From positions 32,001 to 96,000 of the IMG/VR virus record IMGVR_UViG_3300001528_000580: a stretch of 64,000 nt of DNA; one strand, written 5' to 3'. Source of the stretch: a virus. Lineage: Duplodnaviria > Caudoviricetes. Made by a program: the position numbers and the translations under genes. The notes beneath the pieces were generated by a model. The model was given only the letters and a program-made list of their open reading frames with translations, was not told where the DNA came from and did no database searches. Positions 54,829-60,114 of the stretch are shown here, piece after piece; the stretch's first letter is position 1, and each line of letters starts with the position of its first letter.

Positions 54829-55127
54829 AGAATGTCAAAACTTTTAATTTGTGAAATTTTGTGAGTTGGACTATTATTGTTATAACTCAATAATGAAAAT
54901 AGTAACAAATGAACCGACAAGTTGAATATAACATGTCGATGAAAGTATCTTGCGAGTGTGGTTTGGTGACACCTTCTGCGAGTATTTCGTGGAGATAGAG
55001 GTTCGATTCCTACATGAAAAATCGAAAGTATTGTGATAGCAATTATAATTTGCTAATGTCTTCGGACGATCATTAAGTTGAGGCGCATAAATACTTAATG
55101 ATGATAATGTCACTATCACGGCATTCT
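54829..55127 (+). ncRNA. unclassified structured RNA
   Basis: Terminal stem AGAATGTC/GGCATTCT, T-loop GGTTCGATTCC, GTCTTCGGAC tetraloop hairpin; no credible ORF. Confidence 0.45.
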
Positions 55128-55219: not shown

Positions 55220-55652
55220 TTTAAAATTCCCATCTACTCGATGTAAAGAGTCGGCAAAACATCTAACGCCGTTAAATTGATGTGTTTTCCTCAAGGCTAA
55301 CGAGGTTTTTTACCAACAGTTTTTAAAATTAAAACGGTTGGCTCTGATGAGATGGGTTATAAACCTAATTGGTGAGTAACCGAAACATAAAGGTACAGTC
55401 TTTACCTTTAGTGATGGTAAAACATAGACACAATTTTGACGTTAATCATGTTAGCGTTGCTCCATGCTATTAGCTAGTCATGAGTTATGGATGCTGTTGG
55501 TTAGTAGGAGCGCAATTAGCTCTGACGGGGTTCAACTCCCTGCAATCCAGTTTCTTCAAGTGGTTGCAAACTCTTGAAGATGCTCTTGAGCATTGAGCAA
55601 AAGCGAAAGCAACATAGATGACAGCTTGGAAAGACAAGCGATTATGATTTTT

Positions 55653-55711: not shown

Positions 55712-55844
55712 TTTGTTTTCCAAATTTTTCTCTCTTTTTGGTTGGCTAGTAGATAAATATTTATCTACTAGCTTTTTTATTTTCAAACTATTGAATTTAT
55801 TGTATATTGTGTTATATTATATTAAATTCATACAAGGAAAAATA

Positions 55845-56393
55845 ATGCGTAGAAAAGAAATACATAAACCAGATCATCCAAATGCATATAAAAATGGTAA
55901 TATTTTAGAATATGTTTATATTGCATCAAAAAAATTAAATAGACCATTATTGAAAGGTGAGATTGTTCATCATATAGATGAAAATCCATTTAATAATGAT
56001 GAAGATAACCTAATGGTATTTGCTACAAAATCAGATCATAATAAATTTCATGCAAATGGACTTGATTTTAACATAGTTGAAAAATTAAGTAATGGTTCTT
56101 ATAAAATAAAAGATGATGTTATGCTAATAAGTAGCAAAGAATTTATTTGTGAATATTGTCATAAGAGATTTATTGCAGAAAAAATAAATCATAAGAAAAA
56201 TAAAATATATTGTTCAATTGAATGTTCAAATAAAGATAAAGAAAAGTTCGATATTCCAATTGAACAATTAAAAGAACTAGTTAAAACATATAATTTAACC
56301 AAAATAGGAAAAATGTTTGGTGTTTCTGACAATGCAATCAGGAAAAGATGTATTAAAAATAACATCGATTTTAAAAATAAGAAAAAATCATAA
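55845..56393 (+). CDS. HNH homing endonuclease with Zn finger and HTH
   Basis: HPNA..NG, VHHIDENPFNNDEDNL; IGKMFGVSDNAIRKRC. Confidence 0.85.
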   Translation: MRRKEIHKPDHPNAYKNGNILEYVYIASKKLNRPLLKGEIVHHIDENPFNNDEDNLMVFATKSDHNKFHANGLDFNIVEKLSNGSYKIKDDVMLISSKEFICEYCHKRFIAEKINHKKNKIYCSIECSNKDKEKFDIPIEQLKELVKTYNLTKIGKMFGVSDNAIRKRCIKNNIDFKNKKKS

Positions 56394-56491
56394 AAAAATT
56401 CAATTTTTTTATTTTGGGAGCTTGAAAAAAACAATATTTGGTGTATATTAAGTATTGTAACAGGGAAACCTGATGCTATTTGAAAAATTAT

Positions 56492-56569
56492 AGAGGTGCT
56501 TGGAAAAACTTTCAACGAGTAGACTTTTAATCTAAATACGTGCAAACAGGTTTTTTCGCTTATTCCTCT
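56492..56569 (+). ncRNA. scaffold RNA displaying a tRNA-Lys(UUU) anticodon stem-loop
   Basis: TAGA-CTTTTAA-TCTA inside the same AGAGGTG...TTCAACG / ACGT...ATTCCTCT frame as 58105-58244. Confidence 0.6.
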
Positions 56570-56657
56570 TTTTTTCAAATATTTTTAAAAATAATACTTG
56601 AAAAAATCAATATTAGGTGTATATTAAGTATTGTAATAGGGAGACATGATATTTGAA

Positions 56658-56725
56658 AATTTCTACTTATGTAGATAAACAAGGAAAACTTGAGGTTGAT
56701 TAAAAAAATTTCTACTTATGTAGAT
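56658..56725 (+). CRISPR. two Cas12a-like repeats separated by 30 nt (mini-array)
   Basis: AATTTCTACTTATGTAGAT at 56658-56676 and 56707-56725, just downstream of a promoter. Confidence 0.75.
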
Positions 56726-56987
56726 AAACATTAGAAACAAATGGTGAAAAGCCGTCAGGAATCTACCCATCACGCACCATGATTAGTGATGTGGTTTACT
56801 GAAAACGAGGTACGAAAGAACAGAGTCTTTTTGAGTATATCTCATAAGCTATAGCGTACAACGAGGCGATGCTAGTGAAATGCAATAAAAGTAGCGGTCA
56901 TGGTACAACCTGCATAGGATGTGGAGTAGACTGAAATATATCAGCTACGTATCAAGAAATTGATTAAACATGTAATTTCTAATGTTT
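56726..56987 (+). ncRNA. unclassified structured RNA
   Basis: 12-bp terminal stem AAACATTAGAAA/TTTCTAATGTTT, several GNRA-type hairpins, GC-richer than flanks. Confidence 0.5.
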
Positions 56988-57330
56988 TTTGCTCTTATGA
57001 GCTGATGGACTTGTACTCAATTGCAACTTAACATTATTCATAATGTTGATGTAAAAGGTCTGACGTACAGTACCTAAAATAAAGTAATGACCTGCCTAGA
57101 TTGAAGCACTAGAAACTTATGCTTCACAGCTTTATGTCGATATTGAGCTGTTTATCCGTAGGATAAAAAATAATCGGTAATCCAAGATGTAATTCTTAGC
57201 ATTGCAAGCATACTAAGTGAGGATTTAAAACATTAATAACTTGATGCTGATAGGTAAGCTATCACTTTTTCAAGATTTTTTTATATTTATCATATATGTG
57301 TAAAATATAAATAATGTTGATTGAAAATTT

Positions 57331-57622
57331 TGTCAAAAGTTGAAATGTTGGATTAGAGGCATCCATCATCTAAGGAGTAACCCACGACATTGAACATTGC
57401 AACTGTAATCACTGATACTTAAAAAGGAAACACTTACAATAAACCAGTGAGCCATAATTAACTGAATAATGACAAAAACTGTTAGGTTGGTATAAGTGAT
57501 AACTTTAAAAGAATGTGATATGCTTACATGTCCTAATTCAGTAGGAAGGTTCGATGGCTAACGAGGAGCATGAGATTACATGCTGAAAGGTTTTTGGCAT
57601 AAAAGCACATCAAGTTTTGACA
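57331..57622 (+). ncRNA. ncRNA resembling the 23S rRNA uL11-binding domain with a large insertion, copy 2
   Basis: GTTGGATTAGAGGCATCCATCATCTAAGGAGT (from 57347) and GCATAAAAGC (57597-57606), closed by TGTCAAAAgTTGA/TCAAgTTTTGACA. Confidence 0.65.
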
Positions 57623-58104
57623 TTTTTATTCATACAATATAATTGTATAGCTATCATGCTAGCTAACTCGTGATACATCAGTGGTTAAAAGGAGCTGTAT
57701 ATCACTGAAAGAGTTTGAACTTACAGCTTGAAAAACTTGATCATGATTGTGGTGCGATAGTTTTTCTTCTTGACCCACACATGGAGTTGGTTAGCTACCA
57801 ATACTCCATGATTTTTATGAAAAAAGTTCAGAAATGAGCTTGAAAATAAAAAAATCAATGCTATATTATAGTATTGAAAGAAAAAAATAGACGATAGCAT
57901 GGAGACGTTTTTCTTGAAATAAAGAAAAATTTAGACAATGCAACTAACTTGAAAATTTGATGGTTCAATCAAGTTACGGAGCTATTCTGAAAGAGATAGC
58001 AATTATTATCAGAAATCATTTAGCTTATGGATGTGAAAGCTATGAACTTATGTTCTAAAGTATGTCAAAGAGATATATAATCATTTTTGCTGATTGAAAA
58101 TTAT

Positions 58105-58244
58105 AGAGGTGGCATAAAAACGTTCAACGCTGATAACGTCGAGGCTGTAGGTTCGAGTCCTATTATTATAGATAGATAATATCAAACTATAATATAGCTC
58201 AATTGGGTAGAGCACGTAAAAAATGTTTTTATAGTAATTCCTCT
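58105..58244 (+). ncRNA. circularly permuted tRNA-Ile(GAT)-like RNA
   Basis: 3' part (58127-58171) precedes 5' part (58188-58216); all four stems pair when rejoined. Confidence 0.75.
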
Positions 58245-58258
58245 TTTTATAAATTCAT

Positions 58259-58347
58259 GTCTGGGTATGCGAATTGGCATAGCAAATTGACTTAAAATCA
58301 ATTGTATTCCGAAAGGTATGAGGGTTCGAGTCCCTCCCCAGATACCA
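58259..58347 (+). tRNA. trnL: tRNA-Leu(TAA)
   Basis: GTCTGGG/CCCAGAT acceptor, ATTGA-CTTAAAA-TCAAT anticodon arm, long variable arm, GGTTCGAGTCC, encoded CCA. Confidence 0.92.
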
Positions 58348-58492
58348 TTTTTACCCAAGAGATTAAATAAAAAATAATCTCTTGGGTTTTTTTATGTATT
58401 TTTCTTAAATTAACGGTTCGAGTCCAGTTTTAATATTTTTTTATATTTTCTTTTATATGAAAAATTTTAATATGAAAGGAAGATATTAAAAA

Positions 58493-59467
58493 ATGACTAA
58501 ATATACTTTAGATGAATTTAGAGATGCAGTAGCTAACAGCAATAATATAAGACAAGTATGTTTAAAATTAAATATATCAGCTTATGGTGGTAGTTATGAA
58601 TATATAAAAAGAAAAATAAAAAAATATAATATTGATACAAGCCATTTTAATAAAAAATCAACAAAAAGAATTACTTGTTTTTCATTACCATTAGATATAA
58701 TTTTAGTCAAGGGAAGTTTTTATACAAATACATCTGTTTTAAAAAATAGATTAATTGCAAATGGAATATTAGAAAACAAATGTTATAGTTGTCAAAGGAC
58801 AAAGTGTGAAATTAATGGAAAAATGATAAATATGCCATTAGAATTACATCATATTGATGGTGACAGAAACAATAATGAAATAGAAAATTTAACTTTATTA
58901 TGTCCAATATGCCATAATTTGACTACTAATTTCAGGGGAAAGAAAAAAGTTAAAAAATTGTATATGTATTGTAAAAAATGTCATAAAGAAATTAGACAAA
59001 ATAAGTATGAATTATGTAAAGATTGTTATGTTGAAGAAAATTATCCAAGAGAAACAAAAGTATATCCAGCGTTTTGTTCAGAATGTGGAAGAGAACTTAA
59101 TAAATCAAAATCAGGATTATGTAGATCGTGTATTAATAAGAAAATGACTACACTTAATAAACCAAGTAAAGAAGTATTAGAAAAAGAGATACAAGAGAAT
59201 AGCTTTCTAGCATTAGGAAGAAAATATGGAGTTTCAGATAATGCTGTTAGAAAATGGTGCAAACAATATGGTATTGATTTTAAACATGGAATAAGAAAAG
59301 AATCTTTACAAGGATTAAAAAAAGGCAGAGAAACTCAAGCATATCAAGCAAAATTAAAAAGAATATGTCCTAAATGTGGGAAAAAGAAATCACCAGATTC
59401 AGAATTGTGTAGAACATGTTATTTAGAAGAAGAATTAAAGAAAAAACAAGCAACATATTTAAATTAA
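58493..59467 (+). CDS. HNH endonuclease with multiple Zn fingers and HTH
   Basis: CYSC...LELHHIDGDRNNNEIENLTLLCPICH; LGRKYGVSDNAVRKWC. Confidence 0.88.
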   Translation: MTKYTLDEFRDAVANSNNIRQVCLKLNISAYGGSYEYIKRKIKKYNIDTSHFNKKSTKRITCFSLPLDIILVKGSFYTNTSVLKNRLIANGILENKCYSCQRTKCEINGKMINMPLELHHIDGDRNNNEIENLTLLCPICHNLTTNFRGKKKVKKLYMYCKKCHKEIRQNKYELCKDCYVEENYPRETKVYPAFCSECGRELNKSKSGLCRSCINKKMTTLNKPSKEVLEKEIQENSFLALGRKYGVSDNAVRKWCKQYGIDFKHGIRKESLQGLKKGRETQAYQAKLKRICPKCGKKKSPDSELCRTCYLEEELKKKQATYLN

Positions 59468-59541: not shown

Positions 59542-60114
59542 ATGTTAGATGATAATAAATTATACTGTATACAATGTGGTAAAGAAAGAGAATTAGGAAG
59601 AAGATATTGTAAAGAATGTCATAAAAAAGTTCAAAGAGAAAGATTCAGAGAAAAATATAAAACTAAAGGAAGATATAGATATACTATTACTTGTATGTTT
59701 TGTAATGAATTATATAATTTAGCGGTAAGAAAAGATCAAAAGTTTTGCGAAAATTGTTGGAAAGAGAGATTACAATTTATAACTAAATATCATTCGACAA
59801 ATCAATATGAAAATAAGTTTGGTCAAAATAAACATAGACAAATTGTAGAATCAATATTGAATAGAAAGTTGTTTTATAATGAAGTAGTTCATCATTTAGA
59901 TCATAATCCAATTAATAATTCTATTGATAATATTATAGTTTTAGAAAGAAAGGATCATATGGCATTACATAATTATTTATATGATTATGAATTTAAATTA
60001 TATAAATTACATGGAAAACAGTATAAAGAATATTGGAATGGAACAATAGAAAAAGATGTTACATTAAAATATCTTAATGAAAATAAAATAAATTATATTT
60101 CTTTTGAAAACTAA
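59542..60114 (+). CDS. HNH endonuclease with N-terminal Zn fingers
   Basis: HRQIVESILNRKL..NEVVHHLDHNPINNSIDN...H...H. Confidence 0.85.
   Translation: MLDDNKLYCIQCGKERELGRRYCKECHKKVQRERFREKYKTKGRYRYTITCMFCNELYNLAVRKDQKFCENCWKERLQFITKYHSTNQYENKFGQNKHRQIVESILNRKLFYNEVVHHLDHNPINNSIDNIIVLERKDHMALHNYLYDYEFKLYKLHGKQYKEYWNGTIEKDVTLKYLNENKINYISFEN

What the first reader, a model, noticed from the sequence alone, without database searches (positions are those of the whole stretch)
58105..58244. Circularly permuted tRNA-Ile(GAT) in a phage
Seen: ACG-CTGATAA-CGTCG-AGGCT-GTAGG-TTCGAGT-CCTAT-TATTATA-G, a 16-nt linker, then TATAATA-TA-GCTC-AATTGGGTA-GAGC-A-CG. Joining 58216 to 58127 restores a CGACG/CGTCG anticodon stem and a complete cloverleaf; leader and trailer pair with each other. 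Known: permuted tRNA genes are described in some algae and an archaeon, matured by the BHB splicing endonuclease, which bacteria lack. The all-A/U acceptor, G discriminator and missing CCA argue for an unchargeable mimic or an unknown maturation route.
Basis: partly seen in the sequence, partly recalled or inferred. Interest (0 to 1): 0.85.

Follow-up and report, generated by a model that had tools for sequence, protein, structure and literature searches.

The report
Phage Y RNA mimicking permuted tRNA
The back-to-front tRNA-Ile in this 441-kb phage is real, but it is most likely a Y RNA of the YrlA type (a tRNA look-alike on a long stem that partners the RNA-binding protein Ro60, which the phage also encodes), not a tRNA gene that must be cut and rejoined; it is an unusually complete variant of a known kind.

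Summary
At 58105-58244 the 3' half of a tRNA-Ile(GAU) cloverleaf lies upstream of the 5' half. The two are joined by a 17-nt loop and enclosed by a leader/trailer stem.

The permuted-tRNA-gene reading is not supported:
- The junction has no BHB motif, and the phage has no splicing endonuclease.
- The same stem scaffold (GAGGUG / stem / UUCAACG / cargo / stem' / AUUCCUC) carries other cargo at four more sites in this genome.

The element belongs to an RNA family that lies beside Ro60/Rsr genes in other phages, prophages and Lentisphaerae bacteria:
- A covariance model built only from those Rsr-adjacent RNAs hits it at 87 bits (E 1e-17). The next hit in the genome scores 23 bits.
- 31 of 33 base pairs covary.

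The phage encodes a Ro60 ortholog 250 kb away (fold TM 0.7 to solved Ro60), plus RtcB and two CCA-adding-type enzymes.

This is YrlA-type architecture, already described as resembling a circularly permuted tRNA. It differs from described YrlA in four ways: an anticodon-arm mimic, a perfect 7-bp acceptor stem, a different stem motif, and no linkage to rsr.

Rsr binding and processing are inferred, not shown. This scan has noted similar mimics in at least 93 other genomes.

The parts
57840..57869 (+). Promoter-like site (TTGAAA, 16 nt, TG-TATATT), the nearest one upstream of the element. The same promoter type precedes the sibling units.
   Evidence: Consensus scan and repeated motif. In a related strain a 207-nt deletion places it directly in front of the element. 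Function is inferred.
58088..58100 (+). Leader motif UGCUGAUUGAAAA. It resembles boxA, the antitermination signal of rRNA operons; that likeness is from my own knowledge.
   Evidence: The same 12-14 nt precede the first Rsr-linked unit in G002, L269 and L271. A variant precedes unit U1. Its role is not tested.
58105..58111 (+). Scaffold, 5' side: outer stem AGAGG, then the conserved unpaired UG.
   Evidence: Pairs with 58240-58244. All 8 outer-stem pairs covary in the family.
58112..58124 (+). Scaffold, 5' strand of the inner A-rich stem.
   Evidence: MFE fold. 9 of 10 pairs show compensatory changes.
58123..58129 (+). Conserved junction motif UUCAACG.
   Evidence: Invariant in alignments A3 and A4. 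Present in all five units of this genome.
58127..58139 (+). Anticodon-arm mimic ACG-CUGAUAA-CGU (GAU at 58132-58134). It stacks on the 58140-41/58215-16 pairs to give a 5-bp anticodon stem.
   Evidence: Sequence and ARAGORN on the re-joined halves. The same hairpin with other loops (AUUGUAA, GUUGUAA) occurs in G002a and L269a.
58140..58146 (+). CG (tRNA positions 42-43) and variable loop AGGCU.
   Evidence: The 27-28:42-43 pairs covary: CG/CG, CU/AG, AC/GU, GU/AC. A15:U48 Levitt pair is possible (sequence).
58147..58163 (+). T arm GUAGG-UUCGAGU-CCUAU.
   Evidence: 4 of 5 pairs covary and 98.5% of cells are paired.
58164..58194 (+). Closed acceptor stem: 3' strand 58164-58170, 17-nt loop 58171-58187, 5' strand 58188-58194.
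   Evidence: 7 of 7 Watson-Crick pairs. All 6 modelled pairs covary in the family.
58195..58216 (+). U8-A9, D arm GCUC-AAUUGGGUA-GAGC, A26, C27-G28.
   Evidence: Sequence and family alignment.
58217..58244 (+). Scaffold, 3' side: junction UAAAA, U-rich inner strand 58222-58235, conserved AAUU, outer stem CCUCU.
58259..58347 (+). tRNA-Leu(UAA), probably co-transcribed downstream of the element.
   Evidence: ARAGORN and Rfam, 51.8 bits. Co-transcription is inferred from the 14-nt spacing and the single terminator.
58353..58394 (+). Intrinsic terminator: a 12-bp GC-containing stem followed by a U run.
   Evidence: Read from the sequence, and visible as the stem in the alignment shown.
56493..56568 (+). 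Sibling unit U1. Same scaffold, but the cargo is only a small hairpin, UAGA-CUUUUAA-UCUA.

Best explanation
The element is a small non-coding RNA of the Y RNA class, YrlA type. It is not a tRNA gene.

Proposed working:
- It is probably transcribed together with the downstream tRNA-Leu.
- Its 5' and 3' ends pair into a two-part stem. The stem has a conserved internal loop (UG opposite AUU) and a conserved UUCAACG junction. This stem is the module shared by a family of RNAs that lies next to Ro60/Rsr genes, so it is most likely the docking site for the phage's own Ro60 ortholog.
- On top of the stem sits a tRNA-shaped module with a T arm, a loop-closed 7-bp acceptor stem and a D arm. Unusually, it also has an anticodon-arm mimic with an Ile (GAU) loop.
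- By analogy with characterised Ro60/Y RNA particles, the tRNA-shaped module would recruit or distract tRNA-binding factors, or stabilise the particle.
- Because the acceptor stem has exactly 7 bp, host RNase P may open the loop. A CCA-adding enzyme (the phage has two candidates) may then tail the 3' strand, as happens with Mycobacterium smegmatis YrlA.

Shown here: the anatomy, membership of the family, covariation, the Ro60 gene, and the family's linkage to rsr elsewhere.

Inferred: binding to the phage Ro60, processing, and biological role.
For: 1. Rfam YrlA is the only non-tRNA family to match the stretch over its whole model: 30.6 bits, E 4e-4. Junctions between tandem tRNAs in the same genome reach only 14-18 bits.

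2. The phage encodes a Ro60/Rsr ortholog, P0001.
- phmmer to solved Ro60 gives 1.4e-8 over the full length.
- Pfam vWA_Ro60 and TROVE match, and NCBIfam Rsr matches.
- The AF2 model (pLDDT 82) has solved Ro60/Rsr structures as its top 13 fold matches, TM 0.62-0.73, including phage phiLo Ro60.

3. Relatives of P0001 in other phage, prophage and bacterial contigs have arrays of RNAs with the same scaffold directly beside rsr on the same strand.

4. A covariance model was built only from seven such Rsr-adjacent RNAs. It finds the element at 87 bits, E 1.4e-17, over the full model. The next hit in the 441-kb genome scores 23 bits.

5. Covariation across 18 family members:
- 93% of cells are paired, against 63% in shuffles and 43-52% when partners are slid.
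- 31 of 33 pairs have compensatory changes.
- Acceptor stems of unrelated sequence all pair 6-7 of 7.

6. In the reverse direction, a GTDB pattern scan for the scaffold gave 7 well-paired units. Four have rsr adjacent, against 0 of 113 poorly paired chance hits.

7. The same scaffold carries different cargo at four other sites in this genome.

8. Literature:
- YrlA consists of a T arm, a closed acceptor stem and a D arm on a 5'/3' stem. It is known in phages and is made polycistronically with tRNAs.
- M. smegmatis YrlA, which has a 7-bp acceptor stem, is cut by RNase P and CCA-tailed (PMC4201824).
- YrlA RNAs are described as resembling circularly permuted tRNAs (bioRxiv 10.1101/312249).

9. 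The phage already has two canonical tRNA-Ile(GAU) genes with encoded CCA, so it does not need this element as a tRNA.
Against: - The Rfam YrlA score (30.6 bits) is far below the gathering cut-off of 69.
- The GNCGAAN0-1G motif that Chen et al. tie to Rsr recognition is absent.
- The element lies about 250 kb from the phage rsr gene, whereas described YrlA genes lie within 4 kb of it. Closer Rsr relatives (62-69% identity) also have no RNA gap next to rsr.
- No binding, processing or function datum exists for this family.
- Expression rests on low-depth contigs (about 2-3x) in one RNA library, and these could be DNA carry-over.
- The alignment used for the pair counts was fitted to the model, which favours the structure.
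- Most linked loci were found by starting from rsr. Only go from RNA to protein, and the numbers are small.
Confidence: 0.75

Rival explanations
1. The element is a genuine circularly permuted tRNA-Ile gene. The leader/trailer helix is cut on both strands, the ends are joined (for example by the phage RtcB) into a circle, and the acceptor loop is then opened to give a working tRNA.
For: - Re-joining 58216 to 58127 gives a canonical cloverleaf with all tertiary-interaction nucleotides.
- The acceptor stem has 7 bp.
- The phage has RtcB and two CCA-adding-type enzymes.
- The authors of the YrlA structure raised this possibility for some YrlA RNAs (bioRxiv 10.1101/312249).
Against: - No splicing endonuclease domain is found in the phage, and bacteria lack one.
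- There is no BHB. The junction has 2 unpaired nt on one strand, 5 on the other, and no 4-bp central helix.
- The same flanks enclose cargo that is not two tRNA halves (U1, U4, U5).
- Homologs beside rsr have 5-14-nt acceptor loops, and most have no anticodon loop.
- The discriminator is G, not the A of bacterial tRNA-Ile (my own knowledge).
- Two ordinary tRNA-Ile(GAU) genes already exist in the genome.
Confidence: 0.06
2. The scaffold RNAs, this one included, work without Ro60. One possibility is a processing cassette in which an RNase III-type stem releases or stabilises tRNA-like cargo. Another is a set of free decoys for host tRNA-cleaving defence nucleases, or for a different protein partner. 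The linkage to rsr seen in other genomes would then reflect a shared RNA-repair theme, not binding.
For: - In this phage and its closest relatives the units are not near rsr.
- The known Rsr-recognition motif is absent.
- Anticodon-arm-like hairpins are enriched in the cargo: 17 of 41 units, T loops included, against 3.4 in shuffles.
- Earlier notes of this scan report YrlA-like mimics beside non-Ro60 proteins in other genomes (unchecked here).
Against: - Arrays of the scaffold sit immediately beside rsr, on the same strand, in at least 8 independent loci.
- The phage keeps an intact Ro60 gene.
- A conserved internal loop flanked by covarying helices is what a protein-binding site looks like, and it parallels the stem-loop-stem architecture of known Y RNAs.
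Confidence: 0.14
3. The element is a functionless remnant. Two tandem tRNA-Ile genes decayed so that only the 3' half of the first and the 5' half of the second remain, perhaps after damage by the neighbouring HNH homing endonucleases.
For: - A tandem pair of tRNA-Ile(GAU) genes exists elsewhere in the genome.
- Three HNH endonuclease genes flank the island.
- tRNA fragments occur nearby.
Against: - The halves are not similar to the other Ile genes.
- The two acceptor strands match each other perfectly. In tandem genes the strands that face each other belong to different stems and need not match: of 88 tandem-type hits in IMG/VR, 0 matched 7 of 7 and 3 matched 6 of 7.
- The whole arrangement, flanks included, is conserved and covaries in distant contigs.
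- It is identical in a related strain that differs by indels just upstream.
Confidence: 0.03

Closest known systems
YrlA (Y RNA-like A; Rfam RF02553), the tRNA-mimicking Y RNA bound by bacterial and phage Ro60/Rsr (Chen et al. 2014, PMC4201824; Wang et al. 2018, bioRxiv 10.1101/312249, PDB 6CU1)
   Same: - A long stem formed by the 5' and 3' ends, interrupted by an internal loop.
- On top of it a T arm, a loop-closed acceptor stem and a D arm in that order, with the tRNA tertiary-interaction nucleotides.
- A Ro60 ortholog in the same genome.
- Occurrence in phages.
- A sibling RNA with the same stem but small cargo, as with YrlB.
- Neighbouring tRNA genes.
   Different: - Scores 30.6 bits against the gathering cut-off of 69.
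- Lacks GNCGAAN0-1G. It has GAGGUG...UUCAACG...AUUCCUC instead.
- Carries an anticodon-arm mimic with a canonical 7-nt loop, whereas YrlA is described as lacking the anticodon loop.
- Lies 250 kb from rsr, not within 4 kb.
- Is one of five units with different tRNA-derived cargo.
Mycobacterium smegmatis YrlA (PMC4201824)
   Same: A 7-bp acceptor stem closed by a loop. That RNA is cleaved by RNase P and receives CCA in vivo, giving a two-piece tRNA-like particle bound to Rsr. This is the likeliest processing route here. Unit U3 of this phage and one unit of phage G004 even encode ACCA after the acceptor 3' strand.
   Different: No processing data exist for the phage RNA. The stem motif differs. 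The phage RNA also has the anticodon-arm mimic.
Circularly permuted tRNA genes of Cyanidioschyzon merolae and other algae, their giant viruses, and Thermofilum (Soma et al. 2007, as cited in bioRxiv 10.1101/312249)
   Same: The 3' half lies upstream of the 5' half, the acceptor strands are joined by a short linker, and the leader and trailer pair. One algal giant-virus example turned up in my scan (L086).
   Different: - Those genes have a BHB motif at the junction, and the cell has a splicing endonuclease and ligase, which make a real tRNA.
- Here there is no BHB and no endonuclease.
- Here the flanks are a conserved scaffold shared with cargo that is not tRNA.
Thermus phage phiLo Ro60 with Yrl1/Yrl2 (PMC12135203); Ro60 in jumbo phages (PMC7824862)
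   Same: A phage-encoded Ro60 together with phage-encoded Y-like RNAs. phiLo Ro60 is among the fold matches of P0001. The proposed role is hijacking host PNPase or RNA repair.
   Different: - The phiLo RNAs lie upstream of the gene and carry the CGAA motif.
- No tRNA-like module is reported for them in the passages I read.

Membership tests
YrlA (Rfam RF02553; Chen et al. 2014) | T arm, loop-closed acceptor stem and D arm in that order, with tRNA tertiary-interaction nucleotides | tested here: met
   Sequence, anchor comparison, covariation. U8, A14, G18G19, U54U55C56, A58, G53-C61 and A15:U48 are all present.
YrlA (Rfam RF02553; Chen et al. 2014) | [quoted passage not shown] | tested here: met
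   MFE fold. 17 of 18 stem pairs have compensatory changes.
YrlA (Rfam RF02553; Chen et al. 2014) | Reaches the Rfam gathering score (69 bits) | tested here: not met
   30.6 bits, E 4e-4, full model. Rsr-adjacent homologs elsewhere also score only 30-42 bits.
YrlA (Rfam RF02553; Chen et al. 2014) | GNCGAAN0-1G motif near the 5' end (proposed Rsr contact) | tested here: not met
   No such motif in 58099-58130. GAGGUG and UUCAACG are the conserved 5' motifs.
YrlA (Rfam RF02553; Chen et al. 2014) | Encoded within 4 kb of the Ro60/Rsr gene on the same strand | tested here: not met
   rsr lies at genome 340290-341834 on the minus strand. The element lies at genome 90105-90244 on the plus strand. 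The feature is met for homologs in G001, G002, G004, L269, L271, L273, L275, L277 and L278.
YrlA (Rfam RF02553; Chen et al. 2014) | A Ro60/Rsr ortholog is present in the same genome | tested here: met
   P0001: sequence; fold; the top 13 matches are all Ro60/Rsr.
YrlA (Rfam RF02553; Chen et al. 2014) | Bound by Rsr, and modified by tRNA enzymes | not testable with these tools
   Needs RIP or EMSA, and modification mapping.
   R1: 87 bits, E 1.4e-17, model positions 1-137. The next genome hit scores 23 bits.
Circularly permuted tRNA genes (algae, Thermofilum) | 3' half upstream of 5' half, giving a complete cloverleaf when re-joined | tested here: met
   ARAGORN at default settings on the re-joined halves calls tRNA-Ile(gat).
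Circularly permuted tRNA genes (algae, Thermofilum) | Bulge-helix-bulge motif at the leader/trailer junction | tested here: not met
   2 nt unpaired on the 5' side (58125-26), 5 nt on the 3' side (58217-21), and no 4-bp central helix.
Circularly permuted tRNA genes (algae, Thermofilum) | A tRNA splicing endonuclease is available | tested here: not met
   No PF01974 match in the complete phage genome, while the archaeal controls matched. The host was not examined; that bacteria lack this enzyme is established knowledge.
Ordinary (linear) tRNA gene | Reaches the Rfam tRNA gathering score in linear order | tested here: not met
   23.6 bits against 29. ARAGORN's linear call has a 3-bp D stem with mismatches.

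The most novel reading that the evidence does not exclude
The unit is opened by RNase P at 58187/58188, trimmed and CCA-tailed. This would give a two-piece but otherwise complete tRNA-Ile look-alike that stays tethered to the phage Ro60 through the scaffold.

Together with its siblings, which display Lys(UUU)-, Ile(GAU)- and Cys(GCA)-type anticodon arms, it would present anticodon loops as bait or sensor for host tRNA-cleaving defence nucleases. The phage RtcB would be at hand to reseal cuts.

That would make the set a Ro60-based anti-defence particle, and the first Y RNA with a functional anticodon arm.
Probability: 0.2. Interest if true: 0.8.

Novelty: new variant of a known kind. Interest (0 to 1): 0.45.

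Why it matters
Y RNAs with a tRNA-shaped module are known, but what that module does is still open. The published YrlA structure stresses that it lacks an anticodon loop and a free CCA end. This phage RNA has an anticodon-arm mimic and a 7-bp acceptor stem. The one tested precedent suggests such a stem gets opened and CCA-tailed, so this RNA is the closest thing yet to a whole tRNA mounted on a Ro60 docking stem.

The phage carries five such units with different tRNA-derived cargo, plus Ro60, RtcB and two CCA-adding-type enzymes. That makes it a compact system for testing whether Ro60 particles deal with tRNA damage or tRNA-targeting defence.

There is also a practical point. The stem motif (GAGGUG...UUCAACG...AUUCCUC) marks an Rsr-linked RNA family that Rfam's YrlA model detects only below threshold. 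Such RNAs are therefore left unannotated or, as ARAGORN did here, miscalled as tRNA genes.

Tried and rejected
- BLAST of the region against deposited phage genomes, in near and distant modes, gave no match.
- The search for related loci with the single Ro60 protein gave nothing. An alignment of homologs was needed.
- IMG/VR pattern scans:
  - T loop to D arm gave tandem tRNAs plus one algal giant-virus permuted tRNA.
  - Exact scaffold with a 95-125-nt cargo gave 37 chance hits, none with paired stems.
  - TTCAACG to T loop to D arm gave mostly tandem tRNAs, the known loci, and a few unverified candidates (L287, L289, L293, L296). Of five such records, only G006 holds a Ro60-like gene. The candidates were not verified as members, so this is not a clean test.
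- A sixth scaffold match, at genome 26492-26591 on the minus strand, lies inside an open reading frame and was discarded as chance.
- Possible scaffold starts near the phage rsr gene (342257) and at 386965 lie in coding sequence.
- Reads: RNA runs X19 and X20 gave no cover of the element, and X18 gave only about 2-3x contigs. Contigs cannot show RNA ends or a cut at the acceptor loop.
- No RNase PH/PNPase core domain was found in the phage, so any PNPase partner would be the host's.
- Similarity of the two halves to the phage's other tRNA-Ile genes was looked for and not found.

Full report
**What is there.** The window is bases 32001-96000 of a complete, 440,868-bp, 25%-GC phage genome with terminal repeats and 33 tRNA genes. 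Reading 5' to 3' on the + strand:
- a leader;
- ACG-CUGAUAA-CGU-CG;
- a 5-nt variable loop;
- a T arm;
- a 7-nt acceptor 3' strand;
- G plus a 16-nt linker;
- the perfectly complementary acceptor 5' strand;
- UA;
- a textbook D arm;
- A-CG;
- a trailer that pairs with the leader.

Joining 58216 to 58127 gives a sequence that ARAGORN, at default settings, calls a canonical tRNA-Ile(gat). In linear order the stretch is a poor tRNA. ARAGORN's call at 58101-58172 has a defective D arm, and Rfam tRNA gives 23.6 bits against a cut-off of 29. An independent assembly from another public run carries 58097-58500 on one 9.8-kb contig with no change inside the element, so this is not a misassembly.

**First clue.** A permissive Rfam scan matched 58113-58236 over the whole YrlA model (RF02553): 30.6 bits, E 4e-4, below the gathering score of 69. 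Junctions between tandem tRNAs in the same genome reach only 14-18 bits.

YrlA RNAs are bacterial and phage Y RNAs. They have a stem formed by the 5' and 3' ends that binds Ro60/Rsr. On top sits a tRNA-like module made of a T arm, a loop-closed acceptor stem and a D arm (PMC4201824). [quoted passage not shown]

**The partner gene.** The phage encodes a 514-aa protein, P0001, at genome 340290-341834 on the minus strand.
- It matches solved Ro60 chains over its full length by sequence (1.4e-8).
- It matches Pfam vWA_Ro60 and TROVE, and NCBIfam Rsr.
- Its AlphaFold model (pLDDT 81.9, pTM 0.76) has Ro60/Rsr structures as its top 13 PDB fold matches, at TM 0.62-0.73. These include Deinococcus Rsr and Thermus phage phiLo Ro60.

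The phage also has RtcB and two CCA-adding-type nucleotidyltransferases. It has no tRNA splicing endonuclease domain and no PNPase core.

**A shared scaffold.** The flanks of the element are not private to it. Five units on the + strand of this genome share the plan GA(G/U)GUG / A-rich strand / UU(U)CAACG / cargo / U-rich strand / AUUC(C/A)UC. Two earlier notes of this scan pointed me to them, and I checked them myself. The five units are:
- **U1** (window 56493-56568): carries only a small hairpin with a CUUUUAA loop.
- **U2**: the finding itself.
- **U3** (genome 204076-204189): carries a T arm, a closed stem followed by ACCA, and a D-like arm.
- **U4**: carries tRNA-like cargo in linear order, with a CUGAUAA loop.
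- **U5**: carries tRNA-like cargo in linear order, with a CUGCAAA loop.

A flank that merely brought two tRNA halves together for splicing would not be expected around such cargo.

**Linkage to rsr elsewhere.** P0001 has more than 1000 homologs. I fetched their surroundings.
- In four IMG/VR records, Rfam YrlA hits of 30-42 bits lie directly beside rsr on the same strand.
- The 480-930-nt non-coding gaps upstream of rsr hold arrays of two to about ten units with the same scaffold. This is seen in prophage-like contigs (L269, L271, L277) and in bacterial rtcR / rsr-rtcA-rtcB loci (L273, L278, L275).
- Several of these units are direct homologs of U2, down to the leader motif UGCUGAUUGAAAA and the end of the D arm, GAGC-(A/G)-NN-(U)AAAA.
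- Going the other way, a pattern for small-cargo units was scanned over one genome per prokaryotic species. Seven have a well-paired inner stem, and four of those sit next to an rsr homolog, in Lentisphaerae. None of the 113 poorly paired hits does.

**Membership test.** I aligned seven Rsr-adjacent tRNA-like units, leaving out U2 and U3.
- RNAalifold recovered an outer stem, an inner stem, a T arm, a closed acceptor stem and a D arm. 20 of 33 pairs were compensatory.
- The covariance model built from that alignment hits U2 at 87 bits, E 1.4e-17, over the whole model. The next hit in the genome scores 23 bits.
- Across 18 matches, 93% of cells pair. Shuffles give 63%, and sliding the partners gives 43-52%. 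31 of 33 pairs show changes on both sides. The caveat is that this alignment was fitted to the model.
- Acceptor stems of unrelated sequence pair 6-7 of 7 in every unit. The two pairs equivalent to tRNA 27-28:42-43 also covary.

**What is unusual.**
- The element scores below Rfam's threshold.
- It lacks the GNCGAAN0-1G motif.
- It lies about 250 kb from rsr, as seems true of the closest Ro60 relatives, which have no RNA gap next to the gene.
- It has a hairpin, ACG-CUGAUAA-CGU, that stacks on the 27-28:42-43 pairs to complete an anticodon arm. The same hairpin with other loops is present in the G002a and L269a homologs but not in all.
- Anticodon-arm-like hairpins are over-represented in the cargo of the family. 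17 of 41 units have one, T loops included, against 3.4 in shuffles.
- Its acceptor stem has exactly 7 bp. The one YrlA known to have that feature, from M. smegmatis, is cut by RNase P and CCA-tailed in vivo (PMC4201824).
- U3, and one unit of phage G004, even encode ACCA after the acceptor 3' strand.

**Expression.** Contigs from one faecal metatranscriptome cover 58097-58162 and 58136-58252 at depth 2-3. This is a weak hint only. Contigs cannot show RNA ends, and DNA carry-over is possible. The context fits a transcription unit:
- a promoter-like site at 57840-57869;
- the leader motif;
- the element;
- tRNA-Leu(UAA) 14 nt downstream;
- a strong terminator at 58353-58394.

**Verdict.** The interpretation as a permuted tRNA gene awaiting splicing is not supported, although the 'mimic' alternative is close to the mark. 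The element is best read as a YrlA-type Y RNA belonging to an Rsr-linked family with its own stem motif.
- Shown: anatomy, family membership, covariation, the Ro60 gene, and the linkage of the family to rsr.
- Inferred: binding to the phage Ro60, RNase P/CCA processing, and any role in RNA repair or counter-defence.

Phage Ro60 and Y-like RNAs are already in the literature (PMC4201824, PMC12135203, PMC7824862). This scan has noted YrlA-like mimics in at least 93 other genomes. I therefore rate it a new variant of a known kind, of moderate interest.

Noticed in passing
window 56493-56568: Sibling scaffold RNA U1. It has the same outer and inner stem and UUCAACG junction as the finding, but the cargo is a single hairpin, UAGA-CUUUUAA-UCUA. 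That resembles a tRNA-Lys(UUU) anticodon arm.
   Followed up: partly
L279:177-552 (genome 204076-204451): Three more scaffold units in tandem (U3-U5), upstream of tRNA-Gln. U3 has permuted order with ACCA encoded after the closed stem. U4 and U5 hold tRNA-like cargo in linear order, which ARAGORN and Rfam partly call as tRNA-Ile and a weak tRNA.
   Followed up: partly
window 57350-57610: A stretch of about 260 nt appears as a discrete contig with nearly the same ends in three RNA libraries from three studies. It lies inside a 1.9-kb ORF-free, relatively GC-rich island (56580-58490). No Rfam family matches it.
   Followed up: no
window 58088-58100, 56474-56487; also L136, L269:4296-, L271:4425-: A boxA-like leader, (U)GCUGAUUGAAAA, precedes the first scaffold unit here and in distant Rsr-linked arrays. 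It may mark antitermination or processing of these RNA operons.
   Followed up: no
window 57890-58096: In a related strain (a DNA-type contig and an RNA-library contig) these 207 nt are replaced by 21 nt. This places the promoter at 57840-57869 directly in front of the element.
   Followed up: no
window 55713-56393, 58493-59467, 59542-60114: Three HNH-type endonuclease-like ORFs interrupt the RNA island. None was analysed beyond reading the motifs in the translations.
   Followed up: no
L135:9705-9923: In the 315-kb phage G004, downstream of its rsr, one scaffold unit carries a permuted type-II (long variable arm) tRNA-like module. Its acceptor 3' strand is followed by ACCA, and about 95 nt lie between the acceptor strands.
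   Followed up: no
genome 256421-256495 (outside the window); L146-L148: The phage has a suppressor-type tRNA with anticodon CUA. The rsr gene of a 62%-identical relative translates only with TAG read as Gln, so TAG recoding occurs in this phage group.
   Followed up: no
window 58405-58430, 54960-55015, 55500-55550: Isolated T-arm-like fragments (GGTTCGAGTCC and similar) occur outside any called tRNA. They may be cargo of further, more divergent structured RNAs.
   Followed up: no
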